A stretch of DNA of 64,000 nt from an uncultured Candidatus Saccharibacteria bacterium (GTDB taxonomy: Bacteria > Patescibacteriota > CAZHWT01). The notes under the pieces were generated by a model that made no database searches, was not told the DNA's origin, and was given only the letters and a program-made list of their open reading frames with translations. Of this stretch, positions 1 to 48,983 are shown in pieces. The stretch lies in NCBI GenBank assembly GCA_964554805.1, contig CAZKPX010000004.1, positions 72,439 to 136,438 on the forward strand. The letters run 5' to 3'. How positions within the stretch are numbered: the stretch's first letter is position 1; each line of letters starts with the position of its first letter. The translations under genes and the position numbers were made by a program.

Positions 1-328
1 CAACACAACCCAAAACAATACAGACAACACCGGTAATGGCTAGTGAGATATGAAATTTGCGATTGGTCCAAATTGACCAATACCAGAATTTATACCAGAC
101 AGCTTGGTTGGTGCGCTTAGAGCGGTTGATTAAAGCGGAGGGAGATTTGGCTTTGGGCGTTTTAGGCCTAGCCGAGGATTCAATAGTAATAGTTTTCATA
201 GACATAATTCGACAGGTTTTAGTATACCAAACGAGCAAGCTTATTTATATGGTTAGTGGTCTCGTGTCTCAATATCCGCCAGCCAAGCTGGCTGCATCGG
301 GGTAATGTAGTTCGCTTGATGAGGGGTT

Positions 329-884
329 GGAAAGGCAAAAATCAAAAGGCAAAGGGCAAAAATTAAAGTTAAAAATCAAAGCCCAAAGTTACAAGTAGTG
401 CCAAGTTAGCCAGTATTCGTCATTGTGAGGATCCGCCAGCTGGCGGAGACGTGGCAATCTAGGAGGATTGATGATTGCCTGTTGGCTTAAGAGTGTCATT
501 ATTGTTTGTCCTGGATTGCCGCTCCGCCGGTTGGCGGATCGCAATGACGTTGCAGGGGGGGGCGTCATTGCTTCTGTTCTGGATTGCCGCTCCGCTTGTT
601 GGGGGATGGCAATCTAGCTGTGACTGATATATTTTTCTCAAGTTACATTCGGCCAAAAGCCATTGTTTTTGTATGTCATTTTTTCACCTCAAATAAACAT
701 TTTTTACTAACCTTTGTGTCTATGGGTAGTATTGAATTTGCTTAGGGGCTCTCCCCGTCAAGCTAGGAGACCAGTATTTGAGGTGAAAGAAATGAATACA
801 AGGGTTTTTATTTAAATGCAGAAGACAGTTGCAGCTACTTTGTATTTTTAACTTTAATCTTTGCCTTTTGACTTTTGCCTTTCC
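329..884 (+). repeat. MITE-like composite repeat, copy a (long form). It has terminal inverted arms, internal palindromic GGATTGCCGCTCCGCC..GGCGG and CGTCATTG..CAATGACG modules, and a hairpin core at about 651-810.
   Basis: The left arm aaaggcaaaaatcaaaaggcaaagggcaaaaattaaagttaaaaatcaaag is inverted at the right end as ctttgtatttttaactttaatctttgccttttgacttttgcctttcc. The core ccaaaagccattgtttttgtatgtcattttttcac..ctaggagaccagtatttgaggtgaaagaaatgaataca is shared with the copies at 29.1, 32.5 and 39.9 kb. No ORF is present. Confidence 0.6.
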
Positions 885-964
885 AATACCCCATCAAGTT
901 GACTGGATTGCCGCTCTGCCAGCTGGCGGGTTAGGCTATCTGCTCTTTTTACCTCCCGCCTAGC

Positions 965-19001: not shown

Positions 19002-20600
19002 CTATGGCGCGAGATAAAAATCGAACAAATGATCCTTGTCGGGCCAGAGGTAGGTTTGGTCTTCTAGGTTGGGGAGGTCGTAGTTGAAGTATTGGCGGAA
19101 GACGGTGCGGAAGGAGTTGACGGGGGTGATGGTGGGGTAGAGTTGGCTGTAGTTCTGGTCGGGGAAGTAGTAGGCGTTGAGGATTTGAGTGCGTTCTTGG
19201 ATAGCAGTGTCGGAGGCACCATCAAATTTCCAGTGGTGGCCGGTGGGGCTGATCATGGCTTCGGGGCCCTCATCGCTCTGGAGAATGATAATGGGTGGTT
19301 GGGTTGAGTTGGCTAGAATAGTGTCGATGGCCTGCATGGCCCTACTGTTGGCGCATTTGACCTGTTCGATGTAATTGGCCGGGCTGATTTCCCAGCGCTG
19401 CAGAGGTTGCTGGAGTAGATTGCAATCAGCATCATAGACGTAGGGGTCATGAGGCATAAGCAGGTGGGTCATGACAAATTTTTGCCCTGTTTGCTTGGTT
19501 GCTTGCAGGAGTTGCTGCTGGCCGAAGTCTGCCCAGCGATAATGCTGATCAAAGCCTAGCCCGAGTGGGTAATTAGTGGTTAATCCAGCTAATTCTGGAT
19601 AGTAGGATGTCTCGAGGAGTTGCCTGGTGAAGCTACTGGTGGTTATAAAATCTGACCAGTTGGCCATGATGTTGGTGTCGGCTACCTCGATGTTGCTGGC
19701 TAGCTCGTAATAATTGCCAACGTGGAAATAGGTGTAGCCAAGCGACTTGAAGATTTGGCCGGCCTTGTGATTTCTCATTAAGACTGAAGCGGTATCGGTG
19801 TCAGAGACACCGTCGGCCTGAGTATCGACCAGGCTTTGCAGATAATCTAGATTGAGGGTTGAGGAAAGTGAAAACAGGGTTTTGGGGTAGTTGGTGTTGG
19901 AATCAGTGGCTAGATAGAACTGCTTTTGAGCCAGATAATCGATTAGCTGTTGGTTATCATAGTCATAGTATTCAGCTTGAGTTTTGGGTGAGGCGTAACG
20001 ATCGAGGACGATGTAATAGATATCGGGTTGACTTGCAGCGACAAGCGATGAGTGATGAGCGACAGGGAGGACTTGGGTGGCCTGAAGTGCTTGCTGTCTG
20101 GCCTCGGAGCTGGCAAATAAGCCTGGAACAATTTGGATGAGAGGGCCGACAAGAAGAATAATGCCGACGAGGCTAATTAGTTTAATAAAACGTATCGATG
20201 GCCAGGTAGTCTGCCGACCGGCAGATTTCATAGCCATGACGACCAGCACTATTGCCACAAGTATATACAATAGCCAGACAGCGACTTTGGCTTGATCGGC
20301 TTCCAGCCACTGACCAAAAATCACAGTCAGGCTATTGAAGCTAAAGAATGTGACAACCAGCGTCAGGCTGATTAGAGCGGCAAAGGTTGGTTTTTTGGTT
20401 AAGAATGCCAAACCTATTTGGATAACTACGACGACAAAGGTTGTAAAAAGGAGCGGTTCAATCACCTGGTTTATAGTGGTGCCGTGAATATTGGTGGCGA
20501 ACAAGCTGAGAATTGCGAACCAGCTGAAGAGAATGGCTGGGGCTAGGCTTAGGAGCGACGAGCGACGAGCGACGAGCGACGAGGTGAATCGGTTGAGCAT
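19002..20600 (-). CDS. Membrane-anchored alkaline-phosphatase-superfamily protein, paralog 2. It carries a heptamer SSR in codons 7-17.
   Basis: Same architecture as 17308-18930 (IYYIVLDRYA, LLMPHDPY, AYYFPDQNY, NSFRTVFRQYFN). The N-terminal SSLVARRSSLL is encoded by (GAGCGAC)x4. Confidence 0.4.
   Translation of the reverse strand: MLNRFTSSLVARRSSLLSLAPAILFSWFAILSLFATNIHGTTINQVIEPLLFTTFVVVVIQIGLAFLTKKPTFAALISLTLVVTFFSFNSLTVIFGQWLEADQAKVAVWLLYILVAIVLVVMAMKSAGRQTTWPSIRFIKLISLVGIILLVGPLIQIVPGLFASSEARQQALQATQVLPVAHHSSLVAASQPDIYYIVLDRYASPKTQAEYYDYDNQQLIDYLAQKQFYLATDSNTNYPKTLFSLSSTLNLDYLQSLVDTQADGVSDTDTASVLMRNHKAGQIFKSLGYTYFHVGNYYELASNIEVADTNIMANWSDFITTSSFTRQLLETSYYPELAGLTTNYPLGLGFDQHYRWADFGQQQLLQATKQTGQKFVMTHLLMPHDPYVYDADCNLLQQPLQRWEISPANYIEQVKCANSRAMQAIDTILANSTQPPIIILQSDEGPEAMISPTGHHWKFDGASDTAIQERTQILNAYYFPDQNYSQLYPTITPVNSFRTVFRQYFNYDLPNLEDQTYLWPDKDHLFDFYLAP
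20553..20583 (+). repeat. Heptamer microsatellite (GAGCGAC)x4 inside the N-terminal coding region of the 19002-20600 gene.
   Basis: gagcgacgagcgacgagcgacgagcgacgag. A 7-nt unit in an ORF means a gain or loss of one unit shifts the frame. Confidence 0.8.
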
Positions 20601-20603
20601 AAC

Positions 20604-22046
20604 TTACTTCTTTTCTAGTAGGTATAGGATCCGGTGGCTATCTTTGATTGGGGTGGCTTTGGTAATTTTGAAATATTGACCAAAAGCAGCCTCAAATCCC
20701 TCCTTGGTGTAGTCAGTGAAAATATCCTGCCGGGTAGCTAACAGAATCTGGACTTGGGAATCCTGTTTGGGGATGAATTCAACGATGGCTCCCTTATGCG
20801 ACAACTGGTGGAACAACAGGGCAATCTTGGCTAAGGGGATGTTGAGAGGGATAGCCAGGTGATGGACGACCGCCAGTCCCATAATGGCATCGGCTTGAAT
20901 ACGATCCAGAATAGCCCGACGCTCGGTATTGTGCCAGCCAATGCCTGGGCTGGGGTTGGCAATGTCTGACACCAAAGGCAGGATACTGCCTTTGGTGGAG
21001 CGACTAGCGACGGGCGACGAGCGACGAGCTTCTGATTTGAGGTATTGGTAGAGGCTGTCGACTGCTAAGGGGTCGATGTCGAGGGCGATGGTTTGGATGC
21101 CTTGATCTGCCGCAACCATGCTAAATAAGCCGGTATTGGCACCGATGTCTGTGGCTGATTTTGCTTTGAGTTGCTTGAGATAGTCCCCCACTAATTGCTG
21201 CTTGTGTTGGAGGGCTTGGTCGACATAGTTGTTGTTATTGATGTAATAGCTGGCCCACTCGGTGTTTTGGCCTTTGGCTTTGAGCTTTTTGACTGCTGAC
21301 TCTAGACTATCCAACATGCCCAGCAATGATTGCAGACTGACTTGACCAACAGATGTAGATTGAGAAGCGGCTTGGAGATTTTTTGAGGCATCGGAAGCAT
21401 GACTGACTTGGTTCTTACCGTGAAGATGGATATGGATTAGCAGGCCGGGTCGGAGACGAGAAGCTGGGGGCAGGAGACGGGAGGCTAGGTCTAGAGGGAT
21501 GCCGTCAATATTCGTCTGGAGTAATTGCTGCAGGCGGAGATCGGTATGGGCCATTAAGGCTAGCGGGGCCAGGAAATGTTGGCAGAATTGTTTGTAGGCA
21601 ACCCAGGGCTTTGGCTGGTAGGCTTCAAAAGACAAGGTGTCAATTAAAACTGGCTGATTGGCCACAAATTGGATATTGTAAGCCGTTGCATCTTTGAGAC
21701 TCATGCCATGTTTGAGGGCTGTTTTTTGAAGATGAAGGGTTAGGAGCGCCGCATCTTGCAGCTGGCTAAATGACCATTCATACGGATAGGATATGACCGG
21801 AATATGCTCAGGTTTAATAATTTTATAGGCCTGCTGAAAGGGGTGGTTTGTTAACTTGACCTCTTGATGAGCTACCATAGCTTGCTGGTCAACAAGAGTC
21901 TGATATAGGCCGGAGCTGTGTAGCAGGTCATAGTTTTTCTGGTATGAATCAGAAACTGCCCGATAGATGGTGTCGTCTTGGTAAAAGACAGTGCCGCTGG
22001 GATCGCGGAAGGATGAAGATTCAAGCTTGGTAGTGTCTTTAGGCAT
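20604..22046 (-). CDS. Two-domain protein with a C-terminal class I SAM-dependent methyltransferase. It carries a GCGACGR heptamer tract in the coding sequence.
   Basis: DIGANTGLFSMVAADQG..ALDIDPLAVD is a SAM-binding fold. EARRSSPVASRSTKG is encoded by the gcgactagcgacgggcgacgagcgacgag tract at 21000-21028. Confidence 0.5.
   Translation of the reverse strand: MPKDTTKLESSSFRDPSGTVFYQDDTIYRAVSDSYQKNYDLLHSSGLYQTLVDQQAMVAHQEVKLTNHPFQQAYKIIKPEHIPVISYPYEWSFSQLQDAALLTLHLQKTALKHGMSLKDATAYNIQFVANQPVLIDTLSFEAYQPKPWVAYKQFCQHFLAPLALMAHTDLRLQQLLQTNIDGIPLDLASRLLPPASRLRPGLLIHIHLHGKNQVSHASDASKNLQAASQSTSVGQVSLQSLLGMLDSLESAVKKLKAKGQNTEWASYYINNNNYVDQALQHKQQLVGDYLKQLKAKSATDIGANTGLFSMVAADQGIQTIALDIDPLAVDSLYQYLKSEARRSSPVASRSTKGSILPLVSDIANPSPGIGWHNTERRAILDRIQADAIMGLAVVHHLAIPLNIPLAKIALLFHQLSHKGAIVEFIPKQDSQVQILLATRQDIFTDYTKEGFEAAFGQYFKITKATPIKDSHRILYLLEKK
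21000..21028 (+). repeat. Heptamer microsatellite (GCGACKR)x4 inside the methyltransferase-domain gene.
   Basis: gcgactagcgacgggcgacgagcgacgag. Confidence 0.7.
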
Positions 22047-25830: not shown

Positions 25831-25868
25831 ACACTATTTAGGTTACAGGGGTAATAGGCAAGCGTCAA

Positions 25869-25887
25869 GCGTCAAGCATAGGAGGAA
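25869..25887 (+). repeat. GCGTCAA heptamer repeat in the leader of the rfbB operon.
   Basis: ggcaagcgtcaagcgtcaagc. Confidence 0.6.
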
Positions 25888-25963: not shown

Positions 25964-25984
25964 GGCGACGGGCGACGGGCGACA
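25964..25984 (+). repeat. GGCGACG heptamer x3 in the leader of the rfbB operon.
   Basis: ggcgacgggcgacgggcgaca. Confidence 0.7.
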
Positions 25985-26050
25985 TGTGGAGACCAGTTCG
26001 ATGGGAAAGGAATGAATGAAGGAGACTGAGGCACCTTTGGTGGCGGATAT

Positions 26051-26156
26051 CGAGACAGGAGACGCGGGACAGGAGGATTGTCAGTAATCTTTGATTTTTG
26101 ATTTTAATTTTTGCCTTTTGCCCTTTGCCTTTTTCCTTTTGCCCTTTGCCCTTTGC
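26051..26156 (+). repeat. Solo right arm of the MITE-like element (copy b): GGAGACAGGA tract plus TIR.
   Basis: cgagacaggagacgcgggacaggaggattgtcagtaatctttgatttttgattttaatttttgccttttgccctttgcc.. The last about 50 nt are read as the C-terminus of the Mur-ligase ORF (..[17 protein letters not shown]). Confidence 0.6.
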
Positions 26157-27411
26157 CGAGCGCTTTCTCTACAGCTGTTTGGTCTGACCAGGGGATTTCT
26201 TGGCCTTGGATGGCTAGGCTTTGTTCGTGGCCTTTGCCGGTAATTAATACTACGTCTCCCTTTTGAGCCATGGCGATGGCTTGGTTTATGGCTTGTTGTC
26301 GATCGTCGAGGCGCTGCCACTGTTTGCCCTGTACTCTACCCTGTTGAGTAAGACCATCGATGATCATTGATTGTATTGTATCCAAAGACTCAAAGCGGGG
26401 GTCCTCCATGGTGAGGATGGAGAAATCTGCCCATTGGCCGGACAGCTGACCGAAGGTTGAGCGCTTGGATTGATCACGTTGAGCTGCTGAGCCAAAAACA
26501 TGAATTAATGCGCCGTTGCCTGTGACTAATTTTTTAGCTTGAGGCAGTACTTGAGCTAAGGATTGTGGCGTATGGGCGAAGTCAATAATGATGGTGTATG
26601 GTGTAGTTTGGACTACCTGCCAGCGACCATCGACCGCTTTGACCGCTGCCAAGCCTTGTCTAATGGCTGACTCAGAAACTTCGAGGCATACCGCGATAGC
26701 GGTTGCTGCTAAGGCATTTGAAACATTGTATTCACCCGGTAAGAAGACTTGCAAGTCTTGGATCGACTTGGTTTTGCTTAATTTGGGAGAAATTTTACTA
26801 TTGAAAGTCGTTGATTGATCGGTTTGCTGCGTAATCGTGCCGAGTAAATCGGCTGGCTGAGACTGGCTAATAGTCAGGAGCGAGGGGTGGGTGGATATAA
26901 GCTGGGTCAATGGTGGACTGTCTATATTTATGATTGTGTGCTGCGACTGCTTGATAATCATGGCTTTGGCTTGAAGGTATTTATCCATAGTGCGGTGATA
27001 ATCGAGATGTTCCGGGCTCAGGTTGGTAATTAGTCCAACCCTAAAATTAAGACCAAAGGTTCGATATTGGTCCAGGCCATGTGAGGTAGTCTCAATAACG
27101 ACATGGCTGACACCTGCCTGTTTCATCTGATGCAACATAGCATATATTTCGGTTGGACCGGGTGTTGAGGTATGAAGGCCAGTTTGGAGATGTTGGCCGT
27201 TGATCTGCGCACCTAGGGTTGAGATGTGGCCGACTGTATGACCAGCCTGCTCCAATATGCTGGAGACAAGATGGGTGGTGGTGGTTTTGCCATCGGTGCC
27301 GGTAATACCAATCAAAATTAAATGTTTGTGTGGCTGGCGGAAGCGAATCATTGCTGCTGCGCTTAAGAGTATATTGATCAGTCGACGGGCAAGAATTCTG
27401 AGATGAATCAT
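26104..27411 (-). CDS. Mur-ligase-family protein (MurT/MurE-like central and C-terminal domains).
   Basis: P-loop GITGTDGKTTT and a Mur ligase middle-domain block, TSHGLDQYRTFGLNFRVGLITNLSPEHLDYHRTMDKYLQAKAMI. The N-terminus MIHLRILARRL resembles the MurT N-terminus. There is no Zn-ribbon. The C-terminal about 16 aa derive from the repeat. Confidence 0.55.
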   Translation of the reverse strand: MIHLRILARRLINILLSAAAMIRFRQPHKHLILIGITGTDGKTTTTHLVSSILEQAGHTVGHISTLGAQINGQHLQTGLHTSTPGPTEIYAMLHQMKQAGVSHVVIETTSHGLDQYRTFGLNFRVGLITNLSPEHLDYHRTMDKYLQAKAMIIKQSQHTIINIDSPPLTQLISTHPSLLTISQSQPADLLGTITQQTDQSTTFNSKISPKLSKTKSIQDLQVFLPGEYNVSNALAATAIAVCLEVSESAIRQGLAAVKAVDGRWQVVQTTPYTIIIDFAHTPQSLAQVLPQAKKLVTGNGALIHVFGSAAQRDQSKRSTFGQLSGQWADFSILTMEDPRFESLDTIQSMIIDGLTQQGRVQGKQWQRLDDRQQAINQAIAMAQKGDVVLITGKGHEQSLAIQGQEIPWSDQTAVEKALGKGQRAKGKRQRAKGKN

Positions 27412-28994: not shown

Positions 28995-29395
28995 GGGGAA
29001 GGGGGAGGCAAAAGGCAAAGGTCAAAAGGCAGAAATTAAAGTTAAAAATCAAAGGTTGCTTACGACTATGACATTGCGATCTGACGGCAAACGAAGTCAT
29101 AGCGGCAATCTTGTTTGATTATATTGCTGGCCCGGCAAAATGCATTCGGCCAAAAGCCACGTTTTTGTATGTCATTTTTTCACATCAAATAAACATGCCC
29201 TAGTATGGATAGATAATTTGGGTGAGGATATACTTATTTACTAGCTCTCCTTGGTCAGGCTAGGAGACCAGTATTTAATGTGAAAGAAATGAATACAGGG
29301 GGTTTATTAAATGCAGAAGGCAGAAGGCAGTCGCAGTTACTTTGTATTTTTGACTTTAATTTCTGCCTTTTGATTTTTGCCTTTTAACTTTAATT
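28995..29395 (+). repeat. MITE-like composite element, full copy c (TIR arms plus hairpin core at about 29148-29310).
   Basis: The left arm ggcaaaaggcaaaggtcaaaaggcagaaattaaagttaaaaatcaaag is inverted at the right as ctttgtatttttgactttaatttctgccttttgatttttgcc. The core ccaaaagccacgtttttgtatgtcattttttcacatcaaataaaca..ctaggagaccagtatttaatgtgaaagaaatgaataca is present. Confidence 0.65.
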
Positions 29396-31332: not shown

Positions 31333-31635
31333 TTACAGAACCTTGCCTTGACTGTCTGCAGGGAGTTGCTGGCGCAGTATTTGAGCTGGCCCCGAAGCTT
31401 GGGGGTGAGTAATAAAATCTTCAACTGCTAATGGTGTAGTGGATGGAATAAGCGGGTTGAGTTGACGCTGTTGCTGTTCTTCTATCTGGCGCAAATCATT
31501 ATGACGAAAATCCCAAGTCTCTTGCAGGCTCAAGACTGTAGGCTGATTTATAAATAAATAAATTATGATGGCGTCAAAGACAAGCAGGCCGAAGGTAATG
31601 GCCCACATGCGCAGCGGCGTAAAGAAAGTACCCAT
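31333..31635 (-). CDS. Small membrane protein.
   Basis: 100 aa with an N-terminal TM helix. No homology recognised. Confidence 0.3.
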   Translation of the reverse strand: MGTFFTPLRMWAITFGLLVFDAIIIYLFINQPTVLSLQETWDFRHNDLRQIEEQQQRQLNPLIPSTTPLAVEDFITHPQASGPAQILRQQLPADSQGKVL

Positions 31636-31690: not shown

Positions 31691-31938
31691 GAAGGCAAAG
31701 GGCAAAGGGCAAAAGGTAAAAATTAAAGTAGAAAATCAAAAATTACATATGCGCCACTGTGAGCCCTGATTGGATCGGGATAAACTCCGTGCGGCAATCG
31801 GGGAGATATCCTAGATTGCCACGTCATTTCATTCCTCGCAATGACGAATACTGGCTAACTTAGCACTACAGCACTACTTGTAACTTTGGGTTTTAACTTT
31901 TAACTGTAATTTTGCCTTTTGCCTTTTGATTTTTGCCT
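31691..31938 (+). repeat. MITE-like element, short symmetric copy d (TIR arms plus a central palindromic module, no hairpin core).
   Basis: ggcaaagggcaaagggcaaaaggtaaaaattaaagtagaaaatcaaa ... tcctcgcaatgacgaatactggctaacttagcactacagcactacttgtaactttggg (the reverse complement of the 383-433 module of copy a) ... ttttgccttttgccttttgatttttgcc. Confidence 0.6.
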
Positions 31939-31942
31939 TGGT

Positions 31943-32278
31943 CTACCCGATGTTGGGTGGGGAGCTGTAGATTGGTTCTACGGATTGACCGATGGGCAGA
32001 CTGTTGACTGGTAGTTGTAAAGCCAGGCCAAGTGCATTGGCTACGGCAACGCCAACTCTTGTGCCAGTGAATGAACCAGGGCCAGGATTGACTTCGATGG
32101 CTTGCAGATTATCCATTGATAAATCTTGGCTGCCTAGTAATTCTTCAATGGACGGCAAGAGGATTTGCGCATGATTGCGCGTTTCCATTTTTGTTAATTC
32201 GGCAACAAGTTGGCCATCGGGCTGCTGTAAGCGAAGAACGAGTTGTTGTCTATCAGTGGTGTTTATATAAAGTATCAT
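31943..32278 (-). CDS. tsaB: TsaB/YeaZ N-terminal domain only (truncated t6A protein).
   Basis: The conserved motif EVNPGPGSFTGTRVGVAVANALGLAL is present. Only about 112 aa run from the plausible Met to the stop, against about 230 aa for the canonical protein. The ORF is flanked on both sides by MITE-like copies. Confidence 0.5.
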   Translation of the reverse strand: MILYINTTDRQQLVLRLQQPDGQLVAELTKMETRNHAQILLPSIEELLGSQDLSMDNLQAIEVNPGPGSFTGTRVGVAVANALGLALQLPVNSLPIGQSVEPIYSSPPNIG

Positions 32279-32420
32279 ATGCAGATGGCTACCATTCAGC
32301 TGGCTATGACCTTTATTATACAACCAACACATGGGCAAAACTACAAGCAAGCATAGGGGAAGGGTGAGAGGCTGAAGGCAGGGGGATTGTGTATCTTTAT
32401 CTGGCATAGCTGTAAGTGTA

Positions 32421-32745
32421 GGGCGGCAATCTAGTATGGGTTTATTATTCACACACAAGAATGCAATCGACCAAAAGCCATTGTTTTTGTATGTCATTTT
32501 TTCTTGCCAAATAAACACGACTTACTAGCTAATGAATGCCGGGATGAGTTTTTACATGATCTACTAGATCTTCTTGCCTAGGCTAGGAGACCAGTATTTA
32601 GCAAGAAACAAATGAATACAGGGTTATATAAAATGCAGGAGACAAGAGACAGGAGGCAGGAGACGCGGGACGCGACGGCGGGGATTGTCAGTAATCTTTG
32701 ATTTTTGACTTTAATTTTTACCTTTTGCCTTTTGATTTTTGCCTT
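32421..32745 (+). repeat. MITE-like element copy e (hairpin core at about 32470-32640, GACAAGA/GGCAGGA heptamer tract, right TIR arm).
   Basis: ccaaaagccattgtttttgtatgtcattttttcttgccaaataaaca ... ctaggagaccagtatttagcaagaaacaaatgaataca ... gacaagagacaggaggcaggagacgcgggacgcg ... ttgtcagtaatctttgatttttgactttaatttttaccttttgccttttgatttttgcc. The right arm supplies the cmk C-terminal tail. Confidence 0.65.
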
Positions 32746-33460
32746 GTCTTTCCAAGTACTTATCAATATAGCGAGATATTTGCTCGACCGTCTGGTTGAT
32801 GGTGTTGTTTGTACTGTCGATAACAACTGCCCCTTCGGCCAGACGTAGGGCTGAATAAGCCCGTTCAGTATCGCGTCGATCTCGCTCAGCTATCTCTGAA
32901 TAGACTTGCTCAAACGAAATATCCTGACCCGCGTCGATATAATCAACATGGCGCCTCTGGGCTCTGACCTCTACTGATGAAGTCAGAAAAAACTTCATAT
33001 CAGCTTCGGGATACACCGTAGAACCAGTATCGCGCCCTTCCAAGACTGCTCCGTTTTTAGTCTGCTTTACCAATTGGCGCTGATAGTCTTTCATTAGCTG
33101 TCGGACTGGCAGCAATGTGCCGGCCAAGGAAGCTGCTTCTGCAACTTGAGAGTTGCGGATATGGTCGGTAACATCCTGATCCCCTACTTTAATATAACTT
33201 TTTGGGCCAGTGTCTTGAGGATTGGCAGTGAAGGTGATGGGGAACTTGTTTAACAGTTCAACAAGTTGGGCAACAGATTGTTCGTTTAAACGTATATTGT
33301 GCTGCAAGGCTAGCCAGGCTACAGCCCGGTAGCAGGCACCGCTGTCGATATTATCTAAACCATACCTTCGAGCTACCAGATATGAAATAGTTCCTTTGCC
33401 CGAGCCGGCTGGACCATCTATCGTAATGACTAAGCGTCGCTGAGTCATTGCGAGGGACAT
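32711..33460 (-). CDS. cmk: Cytidylate kinase.
   Basis: ITIDGPAGSGKGT P-loop and YLVARRYGLDNIDSGACYRAVAW. The start is set at M(TQRRLV). The last about 12 aa (GKNQKAKGKN) are encoded by the repeat arm. Confidence 0.8.
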   Translation of the reverse strand: MSLAMTQRRLVITIDGPAGSGKGTISYLVARRYGLDNIDSGACYRAVAWLALQHNIRLNEQSVAQLVELLNKFPITFTANPQDTGPKSYIKVGDQDVTDHIRNSQVAEAASLAGTLLPVRQLMKDYQRQLVKQTKNGAVLEGRDTGSTVYPEADMKFFLTSSVEVRAQRRHVDYIDAGQDISFEQVYSEIAERDRRDTERAYSALRLAEGAVVIDSTNNTINQTVEQISRYIDKYLERQGKNQKAKGKN

Positions 33461-33512
33461 AGGAGATGGGATATTGGATATAGTTTTGTTGTTGTTAGCC
33501 ATATTCAATATT

Positions 33513-35180
33513 CTATCTTTTATCCCCACCAGCTTGGCTGGCGGCGGCGATAAAGTCGCGGAATAGCGGATGGGCTTGGGTGGGCCGGGACAGAAACTCG
33601 GGATGGAATTGGACTCCGATAAAGAAGGGGTGATTGGGTATTTCGACCATTTCAACAAGCTGACCATCTGGCGAGGTGCCGCTAATTATCATGCCGGCTT
33701 CTTCTAATGGCTGTCTGTAGACATTATTAAACTCATAGCGATGGCGATGGCGCTCATGAATAGCACTTTGTTGGTACGCTTGATACGCCAACGTGCTGGG
33801 CTTAACTTTGCAGGCCCAATCTCCCAAACGCATACTACCACCGTACTCCTGCTTGAGCAGCTTCTTTTGTTGGTCGGGCATGATGTGAACAATGGGATGC
33901 TTGGTTTTTGGGTCTACCTCGGTTGAATTGGCATTTTTGAGACCTGCTACATTTCTGGCAAACTCGATGGTGGCCATCTGCATGCCGTAGCATAACCCAA
34001 GATATGGCTTATTGTGCTGACGAGCGAATTTGACTGCAGCTATCATGCCTTCAATGCCCCGAGAACCGAAGCCTCCCGGCACGCAAATACCATCCATTTC
34101 GGCCAGTTTGTCAGTCCCTTCTTGTTCAATCTTTTCGGCATCCACCCAAAATAACTGGGGATCTAGGCCATGATGCCAGGCAGCATGCTTCAGGGCTTCG
34201 ATAACCGATACATAAACATCTTCCAGAACGAAATCTCCGGTAGCAAAGTATTTGCCGATTAGCCCGATTTTGACTGGCTTTTTGGCTTTGGCGATCGTTT
34301 TGTTGAGGGCAACCCAATCATCTAAGTTCTTGTCTTTGACCGGTAAGCCCATCTTTTCCAGTAACCGCTCGGCGACGTGCTGTTTGTCTAGAATTAGCGG
34401 CACCTGATAAATGCTATCGACATCGGGATTAGAAATGACATCTTCTGCCTGAACATTGGTGAAAAGTGAAATCTTCTCACGGCGGGTTTTATCGATACTG
34501 GCCGTTGATCGACCAACGATCATATCTGGCTGAATACCCATTGAATTGAGGGCGCGAACCGACTGCTGAATTGGCTTGGATTTCATTTCTCCCAAGGTAC
34601 CAGGAATGGGCAAATAGCCAAGATGAAGCTGGAAGACATCATGCGGATTCTTGAGCTTCATAATGCGCGAAGCTTCTAAAAATAACACATTCTCATAATC
34701 CCCTACTGTGCCACCCAGCTCGATGATAACGACATCGGCTTTATGACGACGGCCGGCCGCTTTGACTCTGTCGATAATTTCATTAGTAATGTGAGGGATG
34801 GGCTGGACCGTTATGCCTTGATATTCAAAGGCTCGCTCTTTTTTGAGAACAGTGTCGTAGAGCATGCCATTGGTGAGATAGTTGGCTCTGTCGAGGTCCA
34901 TGCCAAGGAAACGTTCGTAATTACCAAGATCTTGATCTGTCTCTAAGCCGTCTTGGGTAACAAAGACTTCGCCGTGCTCTTGGGGTCGCAAGGTGCCAGC
35001 GTCCATGTTGAAGTACATATCTATCTTCATGGGCGAGACTGTATAGCCCGAGGCTTTTAGTAATAAGCCGATTGAAGCCGAGGTTATTCCTTTGCCAATT
35101 CCTGAGATAACACCACCGGTAACGAATAAATACTTTGTTGGCATAGTTCCCCCTTTATAGTGACGAGCGACAAGCGACAA
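33513..35180 (-). CDS. pyrG: CTP synthase.
   Basis: KYLFVTGGVISGIGKGI at the N-terminus and a glutamine amidotransferase domain (GLCYGMQ, HPEF). 555 aa. Confidence 0.95.
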   Translation of the reverse strand: MSLVARHYKGGTMPTKYLFVTGGVISGIGKGITSASIGLLLKASGYTVSPMKIDMYFNMDAGTLRPQEHGEVFVTQDGLETDQDLGNYERFLGMDLDRANYLTNGMLYDTVLKKERAFEYQGITVQPIPHITNEIIDRVKAAGRRHKADVVIIELGGTVGDYENVLFLEASRIMKLKNPHDVFQLHLGYLPIPGTLGEMKSKPIQQSVRALNSMGIQPDMIVGRSTASIDKTRREKISLFTNVQAEDVISNPDVDSIYQVPLILDKQHVAERLLEKMGLPVKDKNLDDWVALNKTIAKAKKPVKIGLIGKYFATGDFVLEDVYVSVIEALKHAAWHHGLDPQLFWVDAEKIEQEGTDKLAEMDGICVPGGFGSRGIEGMIAAVKFARQHNKPYLGLCYGMQMATIEFARNVAGLKNANSTEVDPKTKHPIVHIMPDQQKKLLKQEYGGSMRLGDWACKVKPSTLAYQAYQQSAIHERHRHRYEFNNVYRQPLEEAGMIISGTSPDGQLVEMVEIPNHPFFIGVQFHPEFLSRPTQAHPLFRDFIAAASQAGGDKR

Positions 35181-35187: not shown

Positions 35188-35332
35188 CATATGCAATGAT
35201 AAGCACGAAATGATAGAGGCCCGTTCAGGCCCGAAAGCTAGATTATGTTTTTTTGAGGGGATTAAAGAGAAGTTAATAGAGTGCCCTTCTAAGAATACTG
35301 GCTTAACGGCTGCGCCGTCAAGCGCGACGGGC

Positions 35333-35430
35333 GACAAGCGACAGGCGACCAGCATTTGTTCAGTATTCAATTTGAACTGAATTTCCTCGTCGCACGTCGC
35401 TTGTCGCTTGTCACTATCGCTAAGCGATAA
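35333..35430. repeat. Inverted arrays of GCGACRR heptamers in the tsaC-pyrG intergenic leader, a large palindrome.
   Basis: gcgcgacgggcgacaagcgacaggcgacc .. ttcagtattcaatttgaactgaa .. gtcgcacgtcgcttgtcgcttgtc, followed by the palindrome ctatcgctaagcgatag. Confidence 0.7.
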
Positions 35431-48126: not shown

Positions 48127-48453
48127 TTAACCTACCTTAATCAATTCGACTTCAAAGAGAAGGTCTGAATTGGCGGGGATTGAGCCGACGCTGCGGCTGC
48201 CATAGCCTTTGGCGGCAGGGATGGTGAGCTTGCGCTTGCCGCCTTCTTTCATGCCAGGGATGCCTTCGATCCAACCATCGATCAGTGAGCCAGGATTAAG
48301 AGCAAAGGCAATTGGTTCGCCACGATCGTAGGAGGAATCGAACTTTGTTCCATCCGTAAGCGTGCCGAGATAGTGGACCGTTATGGATGAGCCGACAGTA
48401 GCTTCTGCGCCTTGTCCGACATTTACTTCTTCAATACTTACTTGATCATTCAT
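48127..48453 (-). CDS. FKBP-type peptidyl-prolyl cis-trans isomerase (soluble).
   Basis: FKBP domain blocks VHYLGTLTDGTKFDSSYDRGEPIAF and GWIEGIPGMKEGGKRKLTIPAAKGYG. Confidence 0.8.
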   Translation of the reverse strand: MNDQVSIEEVNVGQGAEATVGSSITVHYLGTLTDGTKFDSSYDRGEPIAFALNPGSLIDGWIEGIPGMKEGGKRKLTIPAAKGYGSRSVGSIPANSDLLFEVELIKVG

Positions 48454-48515
48454 AATACTTCTCCTTTATTTGTGTTGTCTGATTTACTATACCTTTTGAT
48501 GATCGCTTCGAAGGG

Positions 48516-48983
48516 CTACGGAATGCTGATCAGCTCAATCTCAAATACCAAGTCGGCATTGGGAGGTATGGATCCACTACCTGAAGCGCCATAGCCTTTG
48601 GCGGCAGGGATGGTGAGCTTGCGCTTGCCGCCAACCTTCATGCCAGGAATACCTTCAACCCAACCATCAATAAGCTGACCCTTGGCCAATACGAAGGTAG
48701 CTGGCTGCCCTTTGTCATAGGAGGATTCAAACTGTGTGCCATCTGCCAAACTCCCGATGTAGTGAACGGTGATGGTGTCTCCTTCTTTGGCCTCAGTGCC
48801 TGTACCGACGACAATATCTTCAATCCCAACAGGCTCATTGGTTGTTGTTTGCTCAGTAGTTGTACTGCTGCTCTGATCGCCTTTGCTGAGATTGCTGCCT
48901 GCCTGCTGTTTGGCAACAATGACCACAACGACGCAGATAATTATTATGCCCACGACTAGGGCTACGATGGTATTTTTGTTCAT
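48516..48983 (-). CDS. FKBP-type peptidyl-prolyl isomerase with an N-terminal membrane anchor.
   Basis: An N-terminal TM helix (IVALVVGIIIICVVVVIVA), an S/T-rich linker and an FKBP domain paralogous to the downstream gene. Confidence 0.8.
   Translation of the reverse strand: MNKNTIVALVVGIIIICVVVVIVAKQQAGSNLSKGDQSSSTTTEQTTTNEPVGIEDIVVGTGTEAKEGDTITVHYIGSLADGTQFESSYDKGQPATFVLAKGQLIDGWVEGIPGMKVGGKRKLTIPAAKGYGASGSGSIPPNADLVFEIELISIP

What the first reader, a model, noticed from the sequence alone, without database searches (positions are those of the whole stretch)
26104..26156. Repeat arms are translated as KAKGKN-type C-terminal tails on Mur ligase and Cmk.
The Mur-ligase-family ORF (26104-27411) ends ..[17 protein letters not shown]. 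cmk (32711-33460) ends ..RQGKNQKAKGKN. In both cases the last 12-17 codons are the GCAAAGG/CCTTTGC arm of a MITE-like copy (26104-26156 and 32711-32745), read in the frame that gives K/A/G/Q/R.

Either the insertions removed the native stops and appended basic tails, or the true proteins end earlier and the element supplies the terminator. The prfB upstream ORF is similarly extended by 51 codons through a CCCTTTG tract (40161-40313).
Basis: seen in the sequence. Interest (0 to 1): 0.55.

Follow-up and report, generated by a model that had tools for sequence, protein, structure and literature searches.

The report
Repeat-element arms encode two protein tails
Copies of a small inverted-repeat element landed on the ends of two housekeeping genes (murE-like and cmk), so each protein now ends in a short lysine-rich tail and a stop codon supplied by the element; this kind of by-product of selfish DNA is already known.

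Summary
The murE-like ORF (26104-27411, -) ends ...AVEKAL|[17 protein letters not shown]. cmk (32711-33460, -) ends ...YIDKYLER|QGKNQKAKGKN*. Both tails and both TAA stops lie in the right arm of a six-copy nested inverted-repeat element of about 250-670 bp. Its arms are degenerate heptanucleotide arrays, (GGCAAAG)n followed by AAATTAAAGTYAAAAATCAAAG.

Family profiles and solved structures stop matching at the junctions. A syntenic contig from a relative (Cmk 75% identical) and an outgroup both lack the element. There Cmk ends ...EYLSQKSSA* or ...EYLAKPRRG*, and only 37-53 bp separate it from tsaB. So the insertion replaced about the last six codons and the stop of cmk. The same is inferred for murE.

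No earlier in-frame stop exists, so "the proteins end earlier" does not hold. The 51-codon prfB "extension" is an ORF-calling artefact: the conserved MEDF start is at 40314.

MITE overlaps that give basic C-terminal peptides are documented (Coxiella QMITEs, Rickettsia RPEs). This is therefore a new member of a known kind. The element family itself matched nothing in the collections I searched, and its heptamer-built arms are unusual. Transposition, translation of the tails and any function were not tested.

The parts
26104..26157 (-). Last 17 codons ([17 protein letters not shown]) plus the TAA of the murE-like ORF. This stretch is the heptamer part of the right arm of element copy F.
   Evidence: TIGR01085 ends at residue 418 of 435. 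PDB MurE chains align only to residue 418-420.
26104..27411 (-). murE-like Mur ligase gene (middle and C-terminal domains; no N-terminal domain, as in its closest homologues).
   Evidence: TIGR01085 365.8 bits against a cut-off of 257.3; PF08245 and PF02875. The 120 listed homologues are 377-521 aa long.
25964..26157 (+). Element copy F. It has a (GGCGACG)n array, a degenerate core (GTGGAGACCAG..GGAATGAATGAAGG) and the right arm at 26075-26157. No left arm is present.
   Evidence: As RNA it does not fold better than shuffles (z = 0.35).
32711..32746 (-). Last 11 codons (QGKNQKAKGKN) plus the TAA of cmk. This is the right arm of copy E; by comparison with the left arm of copy A the similarity reaches TTGGAAAG at 32748-32755 (codons L-E-R).
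   Evidence: cmk models end at residues 298-308 of the 318-aa ORF. PDB chains align to residue 233-236 of 249.
32711..33460 (-). cmk, (d)CMP kinase.
   Evidence: TIGR00017 202 bits against a cut-off of 135.55. The exact 249-aa product is in the protein collection.
32400..32755 (+). Element copy E: core, inner inverted repeat, (CAGGAGA)n array and right arm. The left arm is degenerate or absent.
   Evidence: The orthologous spacer is 37 bp in L080 and 53 bp in L081.
272..939 (+). Element copy A, the longest full copy, with arms at 272-381 and 838-939. It carries nested small CCGCCAGCTGGCGG-type palindromes and sits between divergent genes.
29006..29387 (+). Element copy B, a full copy between the DUF5667 gene stop (29390) and the galE promoter. 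Arms at 29010-29083 and 29314-29385.
   Evidence: It folds as one long hairpin (-120.4 kcal/mol, z = -8.3).
31692..31941 (+). Element copy C, which has arms only and no core. Its right arm ends 1-3 nt from the tsaB stop (31943-31945).
39810..40243 (+). Element copy D, a full copy in the divergent ftsE/prfB promoter region. Inner inverted repeat at about 39945-39974 and 40054-40082.
40161..40313 (+). Open frame through the right arm of copy D, upstream of prfB. It is an ORF-calling artefact, not an N-terminal extension.
   Evidence: TIGR00020 aligns from residue 61. The MEDF start at 40314 is conserved in L080.
40314..41396 (+). prfB (release factor 2) with its supported start codon.
   Evidence: (the exact 360-aa product is in the collection).
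39757..39867 (-). Open frame through the left arm of copy D, upstream of ftsE. It is an artefact; the real start is MIHYK at 39756.
   Evidence: TIGR02673 aligns from residue 38. The L080 FtsE starts MIHYKDVS.

Best explanation
A lineage-specific, non-coding, MITE-like element fills the short gaps between genes in this compact genome. It consists of outer inverted arms of about 50-110 nt built from degenerate heptanucleotide units, a conserved core with its own roughly 28-bp inverted repeat, and variable internal heptamer arrays. At two sites the right arm overlaps the 3' end of the upstream gene. The native last few codons and stop are gone. The ORF reads 11-17 codons into the arm as the K/G/Q/R/A heptad and stops at the TAA inside the arm's conserved AAAAATTAAAG motif. 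This works because (GGCAAAG)n has no stop codon in any frame and, since 7 is coprime to 3, encodes the same heptad in every frame. The conserved inner part of the arm then supplies a stop within 9-28 codons in two of the three frames. The tails lie beyond the conserved folded domains and are most likely tolerated by-products rather than adaptations. What is shown: the anatomy, the junctions, the absence of the element at orthologous sites, and the replacement of the cmk end. What is inferred: that the copies spread by transposition, that the murE end was replaced in the same way, and that the tails are translated and neutral.
For: There are six copies with a shared architecture, all in the same orientation. 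Profiles and PDB chains end at the junctions. The relative L080 and the outgroup L081 are syntenic but give no blastn hit to any copy. Their Cmk proteins have their own short tails and stops, with 37-53-bp spacers. Native 'CCCCTTGAC' -35 boxes lie directly beside the left arms and are conserved in L080. The elements therefore occupy exactly the space from one gene's stop codon to the next gene's promoter. Read inward, the arms are open across the heptamers in all frames, and two of the three frames reach a stop after 9-28 codons in five of the six right arms (copy B's outermost base already lies in a stop in one frame). The closest MurE homologues have unrelated hydrophilic tails of up to about 13 residues, so this position tolerates variable sequence. 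Independent assemblies confirm the junctions. Heptamer arrays are a general feature here: 12 exact period-7 runs against 0-3 for each other period from 4 to 12. They also occur in frame elsewhere: in a methyltransferase-like loop, in an N-terminal segment, and in the PyrG tail of the relative. Precedent: Coxiella QMITE1/2 overlap gene 3' ends by 1-50 bp, confer basic peptides and extend EnhC by 33 residues (PMC5896051). In-frame MITE fusions are described as not unusual (PMC10969869).
Against: No target-site duplication could be defined. No transposase or autonomous partner lies among the window ORFs scanned, which cover most but not all of the larger ones. The family was not found in GTDB representative genomes, JGI metagenomes or viral contigs, so mobility rests only on copy number and presence/absence. 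No element-free orthologous murE locus was available: the closest homologue is 55% identical and sits in a different context, and murE is absent from the syntenic position in L080. Both tails use the same frame (...KGKN*) and sharply raise the computed charge (Cmk pI 6.3 to 8.85; MurE net charge +4 to +12). AlphaFold2 models the Cmk tail as a continuation of the last helix (helix 221-247, last block pLDDT 88). A selected role is therefore not excluded. Translation of the tails is not demonstrated.
Confidence: 0.72

Rival explanations
1. The arms are not ends of a transposable element. They are locally generated heptanucleotide microsatellites, spread or homogenised by slippage, recombination or gene conversion. 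The tails arose when arrays expanded across the stop codons.
For: The arms are degenerate heptamer arrays with variable unit number. Other, unrelated heptamer arrays lie at promoters and inside coding regions of this genome and its relative: a (GCTTGAC)n array at the epimerase promoter conserved in L080, a PyrG tail in L080, and a (GAGCGAC)n array in two ORFs. A second heptamer-armed hairpin lies upstream of pyrG. No target-site duplication and no transposase were found.
Against: Copies share 150-400 bp of non-repetitive core and a conserved arm-proximal motif at unlinked sites. Slippage cannot create these. The elements are absent as whole units from orthologous spacers of 37-67 bp.
Confidence: 0.15
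2. The basic tails are functional and selected, for example for binding nucleic acid or membrane, or for stability.
For: Both genes use the same frame and end ...KGKN*. The charge shifts are large. The Cmk tail is modelled as a confident helical extension. The closest MurE homologues also have hydrophilic, often Lys-rich tails.
Against: The same peptide arises in any frame from the DNA repeat. There are only two cases. Relatives at 75% and 58% identity lack it. The tail sequence matches non-coding copies of the arm at other sites, which points to recent, unselected origin.
Confidence: 0.08
3. The proteins effectively end earlier. Transcripts are terminated or cleaved within the arm before the TAA, for example by RNase III on an arm hairpin, giving non-stop mRNAs that are rescued by tmRNA.
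For: Full copies fold into long hairpins (z = -8.3). This mechanism was proposed for the Coxiella enhC-QMITE2 overlap (PMC5896051).
Against: The two copies that overlap genes (E and F) lack a left arm and do not fold better than shuffles (z = -0.25 and 0.35). No intrinsic-terminator-like site was found in the arms. Constitutive non-stop decay would be costly for murE and cmk, which are normally essential (my own knowledge).
Confidence: 0.05
4. Assembly artefact: the gene-arm junctions are chimeric joins made at a repeat.
For: Independent Logan contigs break inside the arms, so the repeats are difficult to assemble.
Against: The stop lies only 33-51 nt past the junction, which is within a single read. 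L001 contains the complete MurE tail up to the TAA, and P0122 contains the Cmk tail, both from separate assemblies.
Confidence: 0.03

Closest known systems
Coxiella burnetii QMITE1 / QMITE2 (PMC5896051)
   Same: These are non-autonomous inverted-repeat elements in intergenic gaps that overlap the 3' ends of functional genes. The overlaps are 1-50 bp (pntAA, mutT, nagZ, ruvB and others). They supply the final residues and/or the stop, encode basic peptides and change the pI. One strain has a 33-residue EnhC extension from an in-frame QMITE2.
   Different: There is no sequence relationship. The host is a gammaproteobacterial pathogen. QMITE arms are not built from heptanucleotide arrays. QMITE2 is linked to IS1111, whereas no insertion sequence partner is known here.
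Rickettsia palindromic elements, RPEs (Ogata et al. 2000/2002, as summarised in PMC10969869)
   Same: Palindromic selfish DNA that is translated as part of host proteins and tolerated because it lies outside the functional core.
   Different: RPEs insert in frame into the interior of ORFs, and the downstream frame is kept. Here only the extreme 3' end is replaced and the element supplies the stop.
Neisseria Correia repeat-enclosed elements and enterobacterial ERIC/REP elements
   Same: Abundant small inverted-repeat elements at gene boundaries. They are co-transcribed, form hairpins, and sometimes alter gene ends or expression.
   Different: They have different sequences, sizes and hosts. Correia elements have defined TA duplications and 26-nt terminal repeats. 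No such features could be defined here.
Heptanucleotide tandem repeats of cyanobacteria (STRR) and related (GGGCAAA)n arrays; TAACTGA repeats of Beggiatoaceae (PMC4679880)
   Same: Period-7 arrays dominate the tandem repeats here. The same (GGGCAAA)n unit exists as arrays that are miscalled as small ORFs in Nostoc/Cyanobacteriota and in many metagenomes.
   Different: Those are simple direct arrays, not paired inverted arms around a conserved core. The labelled homologues of the proteins encoded here are Patescibacteria or Chloroflexota (MurE) or assorted other phyla (Cmk), none cyanobacterial.
Porphyromonas gingivalis MITE containing a minisatellite (PMC4596501; title and abstract only)
   Same: A bacterial MITE that carries tandem repeats as part of its structure.
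   Different: There the tandem array is internal. Here the arrays form the terminal arms as well as lying inside the element.

Membership tests
MITE (miniature inverted-repeat transposable element) | Short element (under about 700 bp) without a transposase gene | tested here: met
   Copies are about 250-670 bp. The only candidate ORF, starting ATGAATACAGGG in the core, ends after 5, 7, 28, 29 or 32 codons in different frames in different copies (read), so it is not coding.
MITE (miniature inverted-repeat transposable element) | Terminal inverted repeats | tested here: met
   Arms of 47-110 nt in copies A-D, 73-87% complementary where repeat finder reports the same-copy pair (A, B and D). Copies E and F keep only the right arm.
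MITE (miniature inverted-repeat transposable element) | Multiple dispersed copies in one genome | tested here: met
   Six copies between positions 272 and 40243 of the window. The rest of the genome was not available.
MITE (miniature inverted-repeat transposable element) | Target-site duplication flanking the terminal repeats | tested here: inconclusive
   The outer ends are heptamer arrays of variable length. No consistent direct repeat was seen beside the arms. The relatives are too diverged in spacer DNA to define the breakpoints.
MITE (miniature inverted-repeat transposable element) | Presence/absence at orthologous sites | tested here: met
   L080 and L081 are syntenic and have no hit to any copy. 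The cmk-tsaB spacer is 37 or 53 bp there against about 430 bp here.
MITE (miniature inverted-repeat transposable element) | A cognate autonomous insertion sequence with the same termini | not testable with these tools
   No transposase domain in the window ORFs that were scanned.
Rickettsia palindromic element type of coding insertion | In-frame insertion inside an ORF, with the native downstream sequence retained | tested here: not met
   Both ORFs terminate inside the arm, and no native C-terminal sequence follows.
Cyanobacterial STRR repeats | Tandem heptanucleotide arrays | tested here: met
   TRF rows are dominated by period 7/14/21/28. There are 12 exact period-7 runs against 0-3 for each other period.
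Cyanobacterial STRR repeats | Heterocystous cyanobacterial host and the STRR consensus units (my own knowledge) | tested here: not met
   The units here are GGCAAAG, GAGCGAC, AGACAAG and similar. Labelled homologues of MurE are Patescibacteria or Chloroflexota.
REP / REPIN | G+C-rich palindromes of 20-40 nt, mobilised by a RAYT (Y1 transposase) | tested here: not met
   The arms are 50-110 nt and A+T-rich. No Y1_Tnp domain was found in the scanned window ORFs. A Y1_Tnp gene was seen only on the contig of a distant relative, L002.
MurE (TIGR01085), Cmk (TIGR00017), RF2 (TIGR00020) | Score above the curated cut-off, with coverage of the profile to its C-terminal end | tested here: met
   MurE 365.8 against 257.3 (profile 70-471 of 472). 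Cmk 202 against 135.55 (3-214 of 217). RF2 442.4 against 370 (3-352 of 353).

The most novel reading that the evidence does not exclude
The heptamer-armed elements could be a previously undescribed class of mobile or self-propagating repeat in a compact, Patescibacteria-like genome. Their arms would be 'frame-blind' coding microsatellites: any frame gives the same K/G/Q/R/A heptad, followed by a built-in stop. That would let them land on gene ends without destroying the gene. Slippage by one 7-nt unit would then switch the tail between three lengths (about 10-28 or more than 50 residues), giving phase-variable C-termini on housekeeping enzymes.
Probability: 0.1. Interest if true: 0.55.

Novelty: new member of a known kind. 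Interest (0 to 1): 0.3.

Why it matters
For annotation, the finding marks three kinds of open frame that run through the arms, and they need different treatment. Two are real C-terminal replacements (murE-like and cmk). Two are false N-terminal extensions (prfB and ftsE). Several are spurious small ORFs.

For biology, it adds an example from an uncultured lineage with a compact genome to the known cases in Coxiella and Rickettsia. In those cases too, selfish repeats rewrite protein termini and supply stop codons.

It also shows how a repeat made of 7-nt units can be tolerated in coding DNA: such a repeat has no stop codon and gives the same peptide in every frame. If the heptamer copy number varies in populations, these sites would be natural experiments on how far enzyme C-termini tolerate change.

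Tried and rejected
- **Rfam and tRNA scans of the window:** no match and no tRNA gene.
- **Genome-collection scan with an arm pattern:** 74 single hits, nearly all the start of a conserved gene beginning MAKIKVKNP in A+T-rich genomes (I take it to be icd; my own recognition, not tested). The source genome is not among the representatives.
- **Metagenome scan with a stricter arm pattern:** 101 single hits without flanking heptamers, which are chance matches.
- **Viral contigs, with core and arm patterns:** nothing found.
- **Protein search with a synthetic (GKGQRAK)n query, to find other proteins with such tails:** only short spurious ORFs on heptamer arrays, some from Nostoc. Tails of 17 residues or fewer fall below detection, since MurE itself was not recovered.
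- **A small protein encoded in the core (good RBS plus ATGAATACAGGG):** rejected, because frame and length are not conserved between copies.
- **The (CAAGCGT)n array at 25859-25877 as the left arm of copy F:** rejected. It is the native epimerase promoter (iterated TTGAC), conserved in the element-free relative.
- **GTCAAGG beside the left arms as part of the terminal repeat:** rejected. It is the reverse complement of the native 'CCCCTTGAC' -35 boxes.
- **Target-site duplications:** none could be defined.
- **Intrinsic terminators in the arms:** none found.
- **Expectation that the Cmk tail would be modelled as disordered:** not borne out. AlphaFold2 extends the last helix through it.
- **Extending beyond the window through edge genes:** only short Logan contigs that break at the repeats were returned.

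Full report
**The observation**

The + strand at 26104-26157 reads TTAATTTTTGCCTTTTGCCCTTTGCCTTTTTCCTTTTGCCCTTTGCCCTTTGCC. On the - strand this is the end of a 435-aa ORF (26104..27411)...[23 protein letters not shown]. A second - strand ORF (32711..33667; annotated start 33460) ends ...YIDKYLERQGKNQKAKGKN*. Both ends are made of the same DNA. The 27-mer GGATTGTCAGTAATCTTTGATTTTTGA occurs at 26075, 32682 and, with one mismatch, at 40145, against none expected. CCTTTGCC occurs 23 times against 3.08 expected.

The first matches murE TIGR01085 at 365.8 bits against a cut-off of 257.3. The second matches cmk TIGR00017 at 202 bits against 135.55.

Separate Logan assemblies of runs SRR16798008/9 contain the same junctions. 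L001 runs through the MurE tail and ends at its TAA. A second Cmk call (P0122) has the same tail. L184 begins inside an arm.

**The repeat**

The window holds six copies, all in the same orientation:

| Copy | Coordinates | State |
|---|---|---|
| A | 272-939 | full |
| B | 29006-29387 | full |
| C | 31692-31941 | arms only, no core |
| D | 39810-40243 | full |
| E | about 32400-32755 | core and right arm; left arm degenerate or absent |
| F | about 25964-26157 | degenerate core and right arm only |

A full copy has five parts, from left to right:

- A left arm, (GGCAAAG)n-AAATTAAAGTTAAAAATCAAAG.
- A variable stretch with small GGCAATC/GATTGCC and CGTCATT/AATGACG hairpins.
- A conserved core. 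It has its own inverted repeat, TGTATGTCATTTTTTCACATCAAATA ... TATTTGAGGTGAAAGAAATGAATACA, around GCTAGGAGACCAG.
- A variable (AGACAAG)n or (CAGGAGA)n array.
- A right arm, TTGTCAGTAATCTTTGATTTTTGACTTTAATTTTTGCC(CTTTGCC)n.

Four base pairs of the inner repeat change on both sides in copy E (CACATC/GAGGTG becomes CTTGCC/AGCAAG). The inner palindrome is therefore maintained, although with four sequences this is one event.

As RNA, full copy B folds into one long hairpin (-120.4 kcal/mol, z = -8.3). The two gene-overlapping copies lack a left arm and fold no better than shuffled sequence. Rfam has no match. The core has a good ribosome-binding site plus ATG, but the frame ends after 5 to 32 codons in different frames in different copies, so I do not regard it as coding.

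**Where the proteins should end**

MurE profiles and all solved MurE chains stop aligning at residue 418-420 of 435. Cmk profiles and chains stop at residue 233-236 of the 249-aa protein.

The decisive comparison is a syntenic 17.4-kb contig from a relative (L080; Cmk 75% identical) with the order prfB-ftsE-ftsX-M23-tsaE-sua5-pyrG-cmk-tsaB-.... There Cmk ends ...YIDEYLSQKSSA*, and 37 bp later the next gene begins. An outgroup (L081; Cmk 58% identical) has the same gene order and orientation as the window. Its Cmk ends ...YVDEYLAKPRRG*, with a 53-bp spacer to tsaB. Neither contig has any blastn similarity to the six copies.

Homology therefore runs through ...Y(I/V)D(K/E)YL. The native tail was about six residues. 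In the window lineage an insertion of roughly 350-380 bp replaced it together with the stop.

For murE no empty site is available. The best homologue is 55% identical and in another context, and murE is missing from the syntenic position in L080. However, its closest homologues carry unrelated hydrophilic tails of up to about 13 residues after the conserved PWSD...AL motif (for example SKPKENHHEKS, KKSKSTEEKHEEH and RKRGKTHDKQV). None has the GKGQRAK periodicity. Lys-rich variable tails are nevertheless normal at this position in MurE.

**How the tails arise**

Because 7 and 3 share no factor, an array of GGCAAAG units encodes the same heptad (G-K-G-Q-R-A-K) in all three frames. It contains no stop codon in any frame (seen directly in the sequence). 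The conserved inner part of the arm then supplies TAA (AAAAATTAAAG) in one frame and TGA (TTACTGAC) in another.

Read inward, two of the three frames reach a stop after 9-28 codons in five of the six right arms. In copy B the outermost base already lies in a stop in one frame. The remaining frame runs 54-71 codons in the four copies that have the core, and 16-21 in B and C. Both genes use the ...KGKN* frame.

There is no in-frame stop before the arm.

The computed effect is a marked gain of positive charge:

| Protein | Without tail | With tail | Relatives |
|---|---|---|---|
| Cmk | pI 6.33 | pI 8.85 | pI 5.8 and 6.5 |
| MurE | net charge +4 | net charge +12 | not compared |

AlphaFold2, run with 42 aligned homologues, models the Cmk tail as a continuation of the last helix (helix 221-247; mean pLDDT 88 for the last block). 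This is not evidence of function, but it does not show disorder either.

**Why gene ends are hit**

The left arms sit directly against 'CCCCTTGAC' -35 boxes of the next gene. These boxes are conserved in the element-free relative, upstream of ftsE and galE. The epimerase promoter, with its iterated GCTTGAC, is likewise conserved there. A perfect TTGACA-17-TATAAT site lies beside copy C.

The right arms end as follows:

- Copy C: 1-3 nt past the tsaB stop.
- Copy B: 8 nt past the DUF5667 gene stop.
- Copy E: 33-42 nt inside cmk.
- Copy F: 51 nt inside murE.

In relatives these gaps are only 37-67 bp long. Any surviving insertion must therefore lie between a stop codon and the next promoter, and some will clip the last codons. 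I infer that no special targeting is needed.

**The prfB claim**

The ORF from TTG 40161 is open through the right arm of copy D. However, TIGR00020 aligns only from residue 61. The start MEDF(R/N)KYFQSH at ATG 40314 is conserved in L080, which has no element. The 51 codons are an artefact of taking the first start codon after a stop. The same artefact adds 37 codons to ftsE through the left arm (39757-39867). Its real start, MIHYK, is conserved.

**Comparison with what is known**

MITE overlaps with gene 3' ends are documented in detail for Coxiella burnetii. QMITE1 and QMITE2 overlap pntAA, mutT, nagZ, ruvB and other genes by 1-50 bp. They confer basic residues or the stop codon, and in one strain they extend EnhC by 33 residues (PMC5896051). 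A 2024 review states that in-frame fusions between MITE ORFs and genomic ORFs are not unusual, with Rickettsia RPEs as the extreme case (PMC10969869). The mechanism here is the same.

As for membership of the MITE class:

- Met: small size, inverted termini, multiple copies, and presence/absence at orthologous sites.
- Inconclusive: target-site duplication.
- Not testable: an autonomous partner.

The element is not an RPE-type insertion, because the gene's downstream part is not retained. It is not REP-like either.

The heptamer construction recalls cyanobacterial heptanucleotide repeats. A search with the heptad peptide found only short spurious ORFs on (GGGCAAA)n arrays, some of them from Nostoc. 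The host here is not a cyanobacterium. The labelled MurE homologues are Patescibacteria or Chloroflexota at about 40% identity. I could not name the organism.

**Limits**

The family was not found outside this genome: the genome, metagenome and viral scans gave only chance hits or none. Only 64 kb of the genome could be examined. Transposition, translation of the tails and their neutrality are all inferred.

**Verdict**

The phenomenon is an ordinary, already known consequence of small repeats in compact genomes, carried here by an undescribed element family with unusual heptamer-built arms.

Noticed in passing
whole window; e.g. 20553-20583, 25859-25877, 25964-25983, 29313-29330, 40099-40117, 63690-63709: Heptanucleotide arrays are the dominant tandem repeat. 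There are 12 exact period-7 runs against 0-3 for each other period from 4 to 12. Several unit families occur: GGCAAAG, GAGCGAC/GCGACGG, AGACAAG/CAGGAGA and GCTTGAC.
   Followed up: partly
20998-21029 and 20553-20583: A (GAGCGAC)n array lies in frame inside two ORFs. In the methyltransferase-like protein 20604..22046 it encodes EARRSSPVASRS in a loop that is 6 residues shorter in the L081 homologue. It also encodes SSLVARRSSLL near the N-terminus of ORF 19002..20600.
   Followed up: partly
L080 7417-7450: In the relative, the PyrG C-terminus (...HQGQEGERQKAGGGE*) is encoded by a period-7 array (AGGCNGN)n. The window's PyrG (...SQAGGDKR*) lacks this array. It is an independent case of a heptamer array forming a protein tail.
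   Followed up: partly
35324-35412: A second kind of heptamer-armed inverted repeat lies upstream of the pyrG promoter. On the - strand, (GACAAGC)n and (GCTTGTC)n arms flank a TTCAGTTCAAATTGAATACTGAA centre, directly next to a CTTGACGG -35-like box.
   Followed up: no
25859-25877; L080 12733-12751: A (GCTTGAC)x2.7 array, which is an iterated TTGAC -35 box, lies upstream of the epimerase gene. It is conserved between the window and the element-free relative.
   Followed up: partly
31943-32278 versus L080 8256-8591 and L081 1017-1352: tsaB is inverted in L080 relative to both the window and the outgroup, so the inversion happened in the L080 lineage (the DUF5667 gene also differs in orientation between the window and L080). 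murE is absent between the NUDIX and epimerase genes in L080.
   Followed up: partly
417-616 and 899-937 (inside and beside copy A): There is a further small repeat family built on the perfect palindrome CCGCCAGCTGGCGG, flanked by GGATTGCC / GGCAATC and CGTCATTG / CAATGACG. Three to five units are nested in copy A, and related hairpins occur in copies B, C and D.
   Followed up: no
43528-44056: A perfect 255-bp tandem duplication (2.1 copies, 100% identical, in frame) lies inside a 2022-aa ORF (41438..47506). That ORF has no Pfam match and many degenerate GGTTCTGG-type repeats.
   Followed up: no
L046 7571-7616 (JAKAFD010000013.1, 'bacterium isolate WY1.bin77'): An unrelated MAG carries GCAAAAGGCAAAAGGCAAAAATTAAAGTTAAAAAT, 87-95% identical to the arms. 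By my reading of the sequence it lies just upstream of a Mur-ligase-like gene start, followed by a small hairpin. This may be chance or a distant relative of the arm.
   Followed up: no
31671-31643 (- strand): A perfect consensus promoter (TTGACA, 17 nt, TGnTATAAT) lies immediately outside the left arm of copy C, upstream of the 100-aa gene 31333..31635.
   Followed up: no
48127-48983: Two adjacent paralogous genes (108 and 155 aa) share an 87-nt stretch at 90% identity. They look like FKBP-type isomerases by their sequence motifs, which I did not test.
   Followed up: no
40314-41396: prfB is read in a single frame from start to stop (profile positions 3-352 of 353). It therefore lacks the programmed +1 frameshift found in many bacteria (the comparison rests on my own knowledge).
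   Followed up: no
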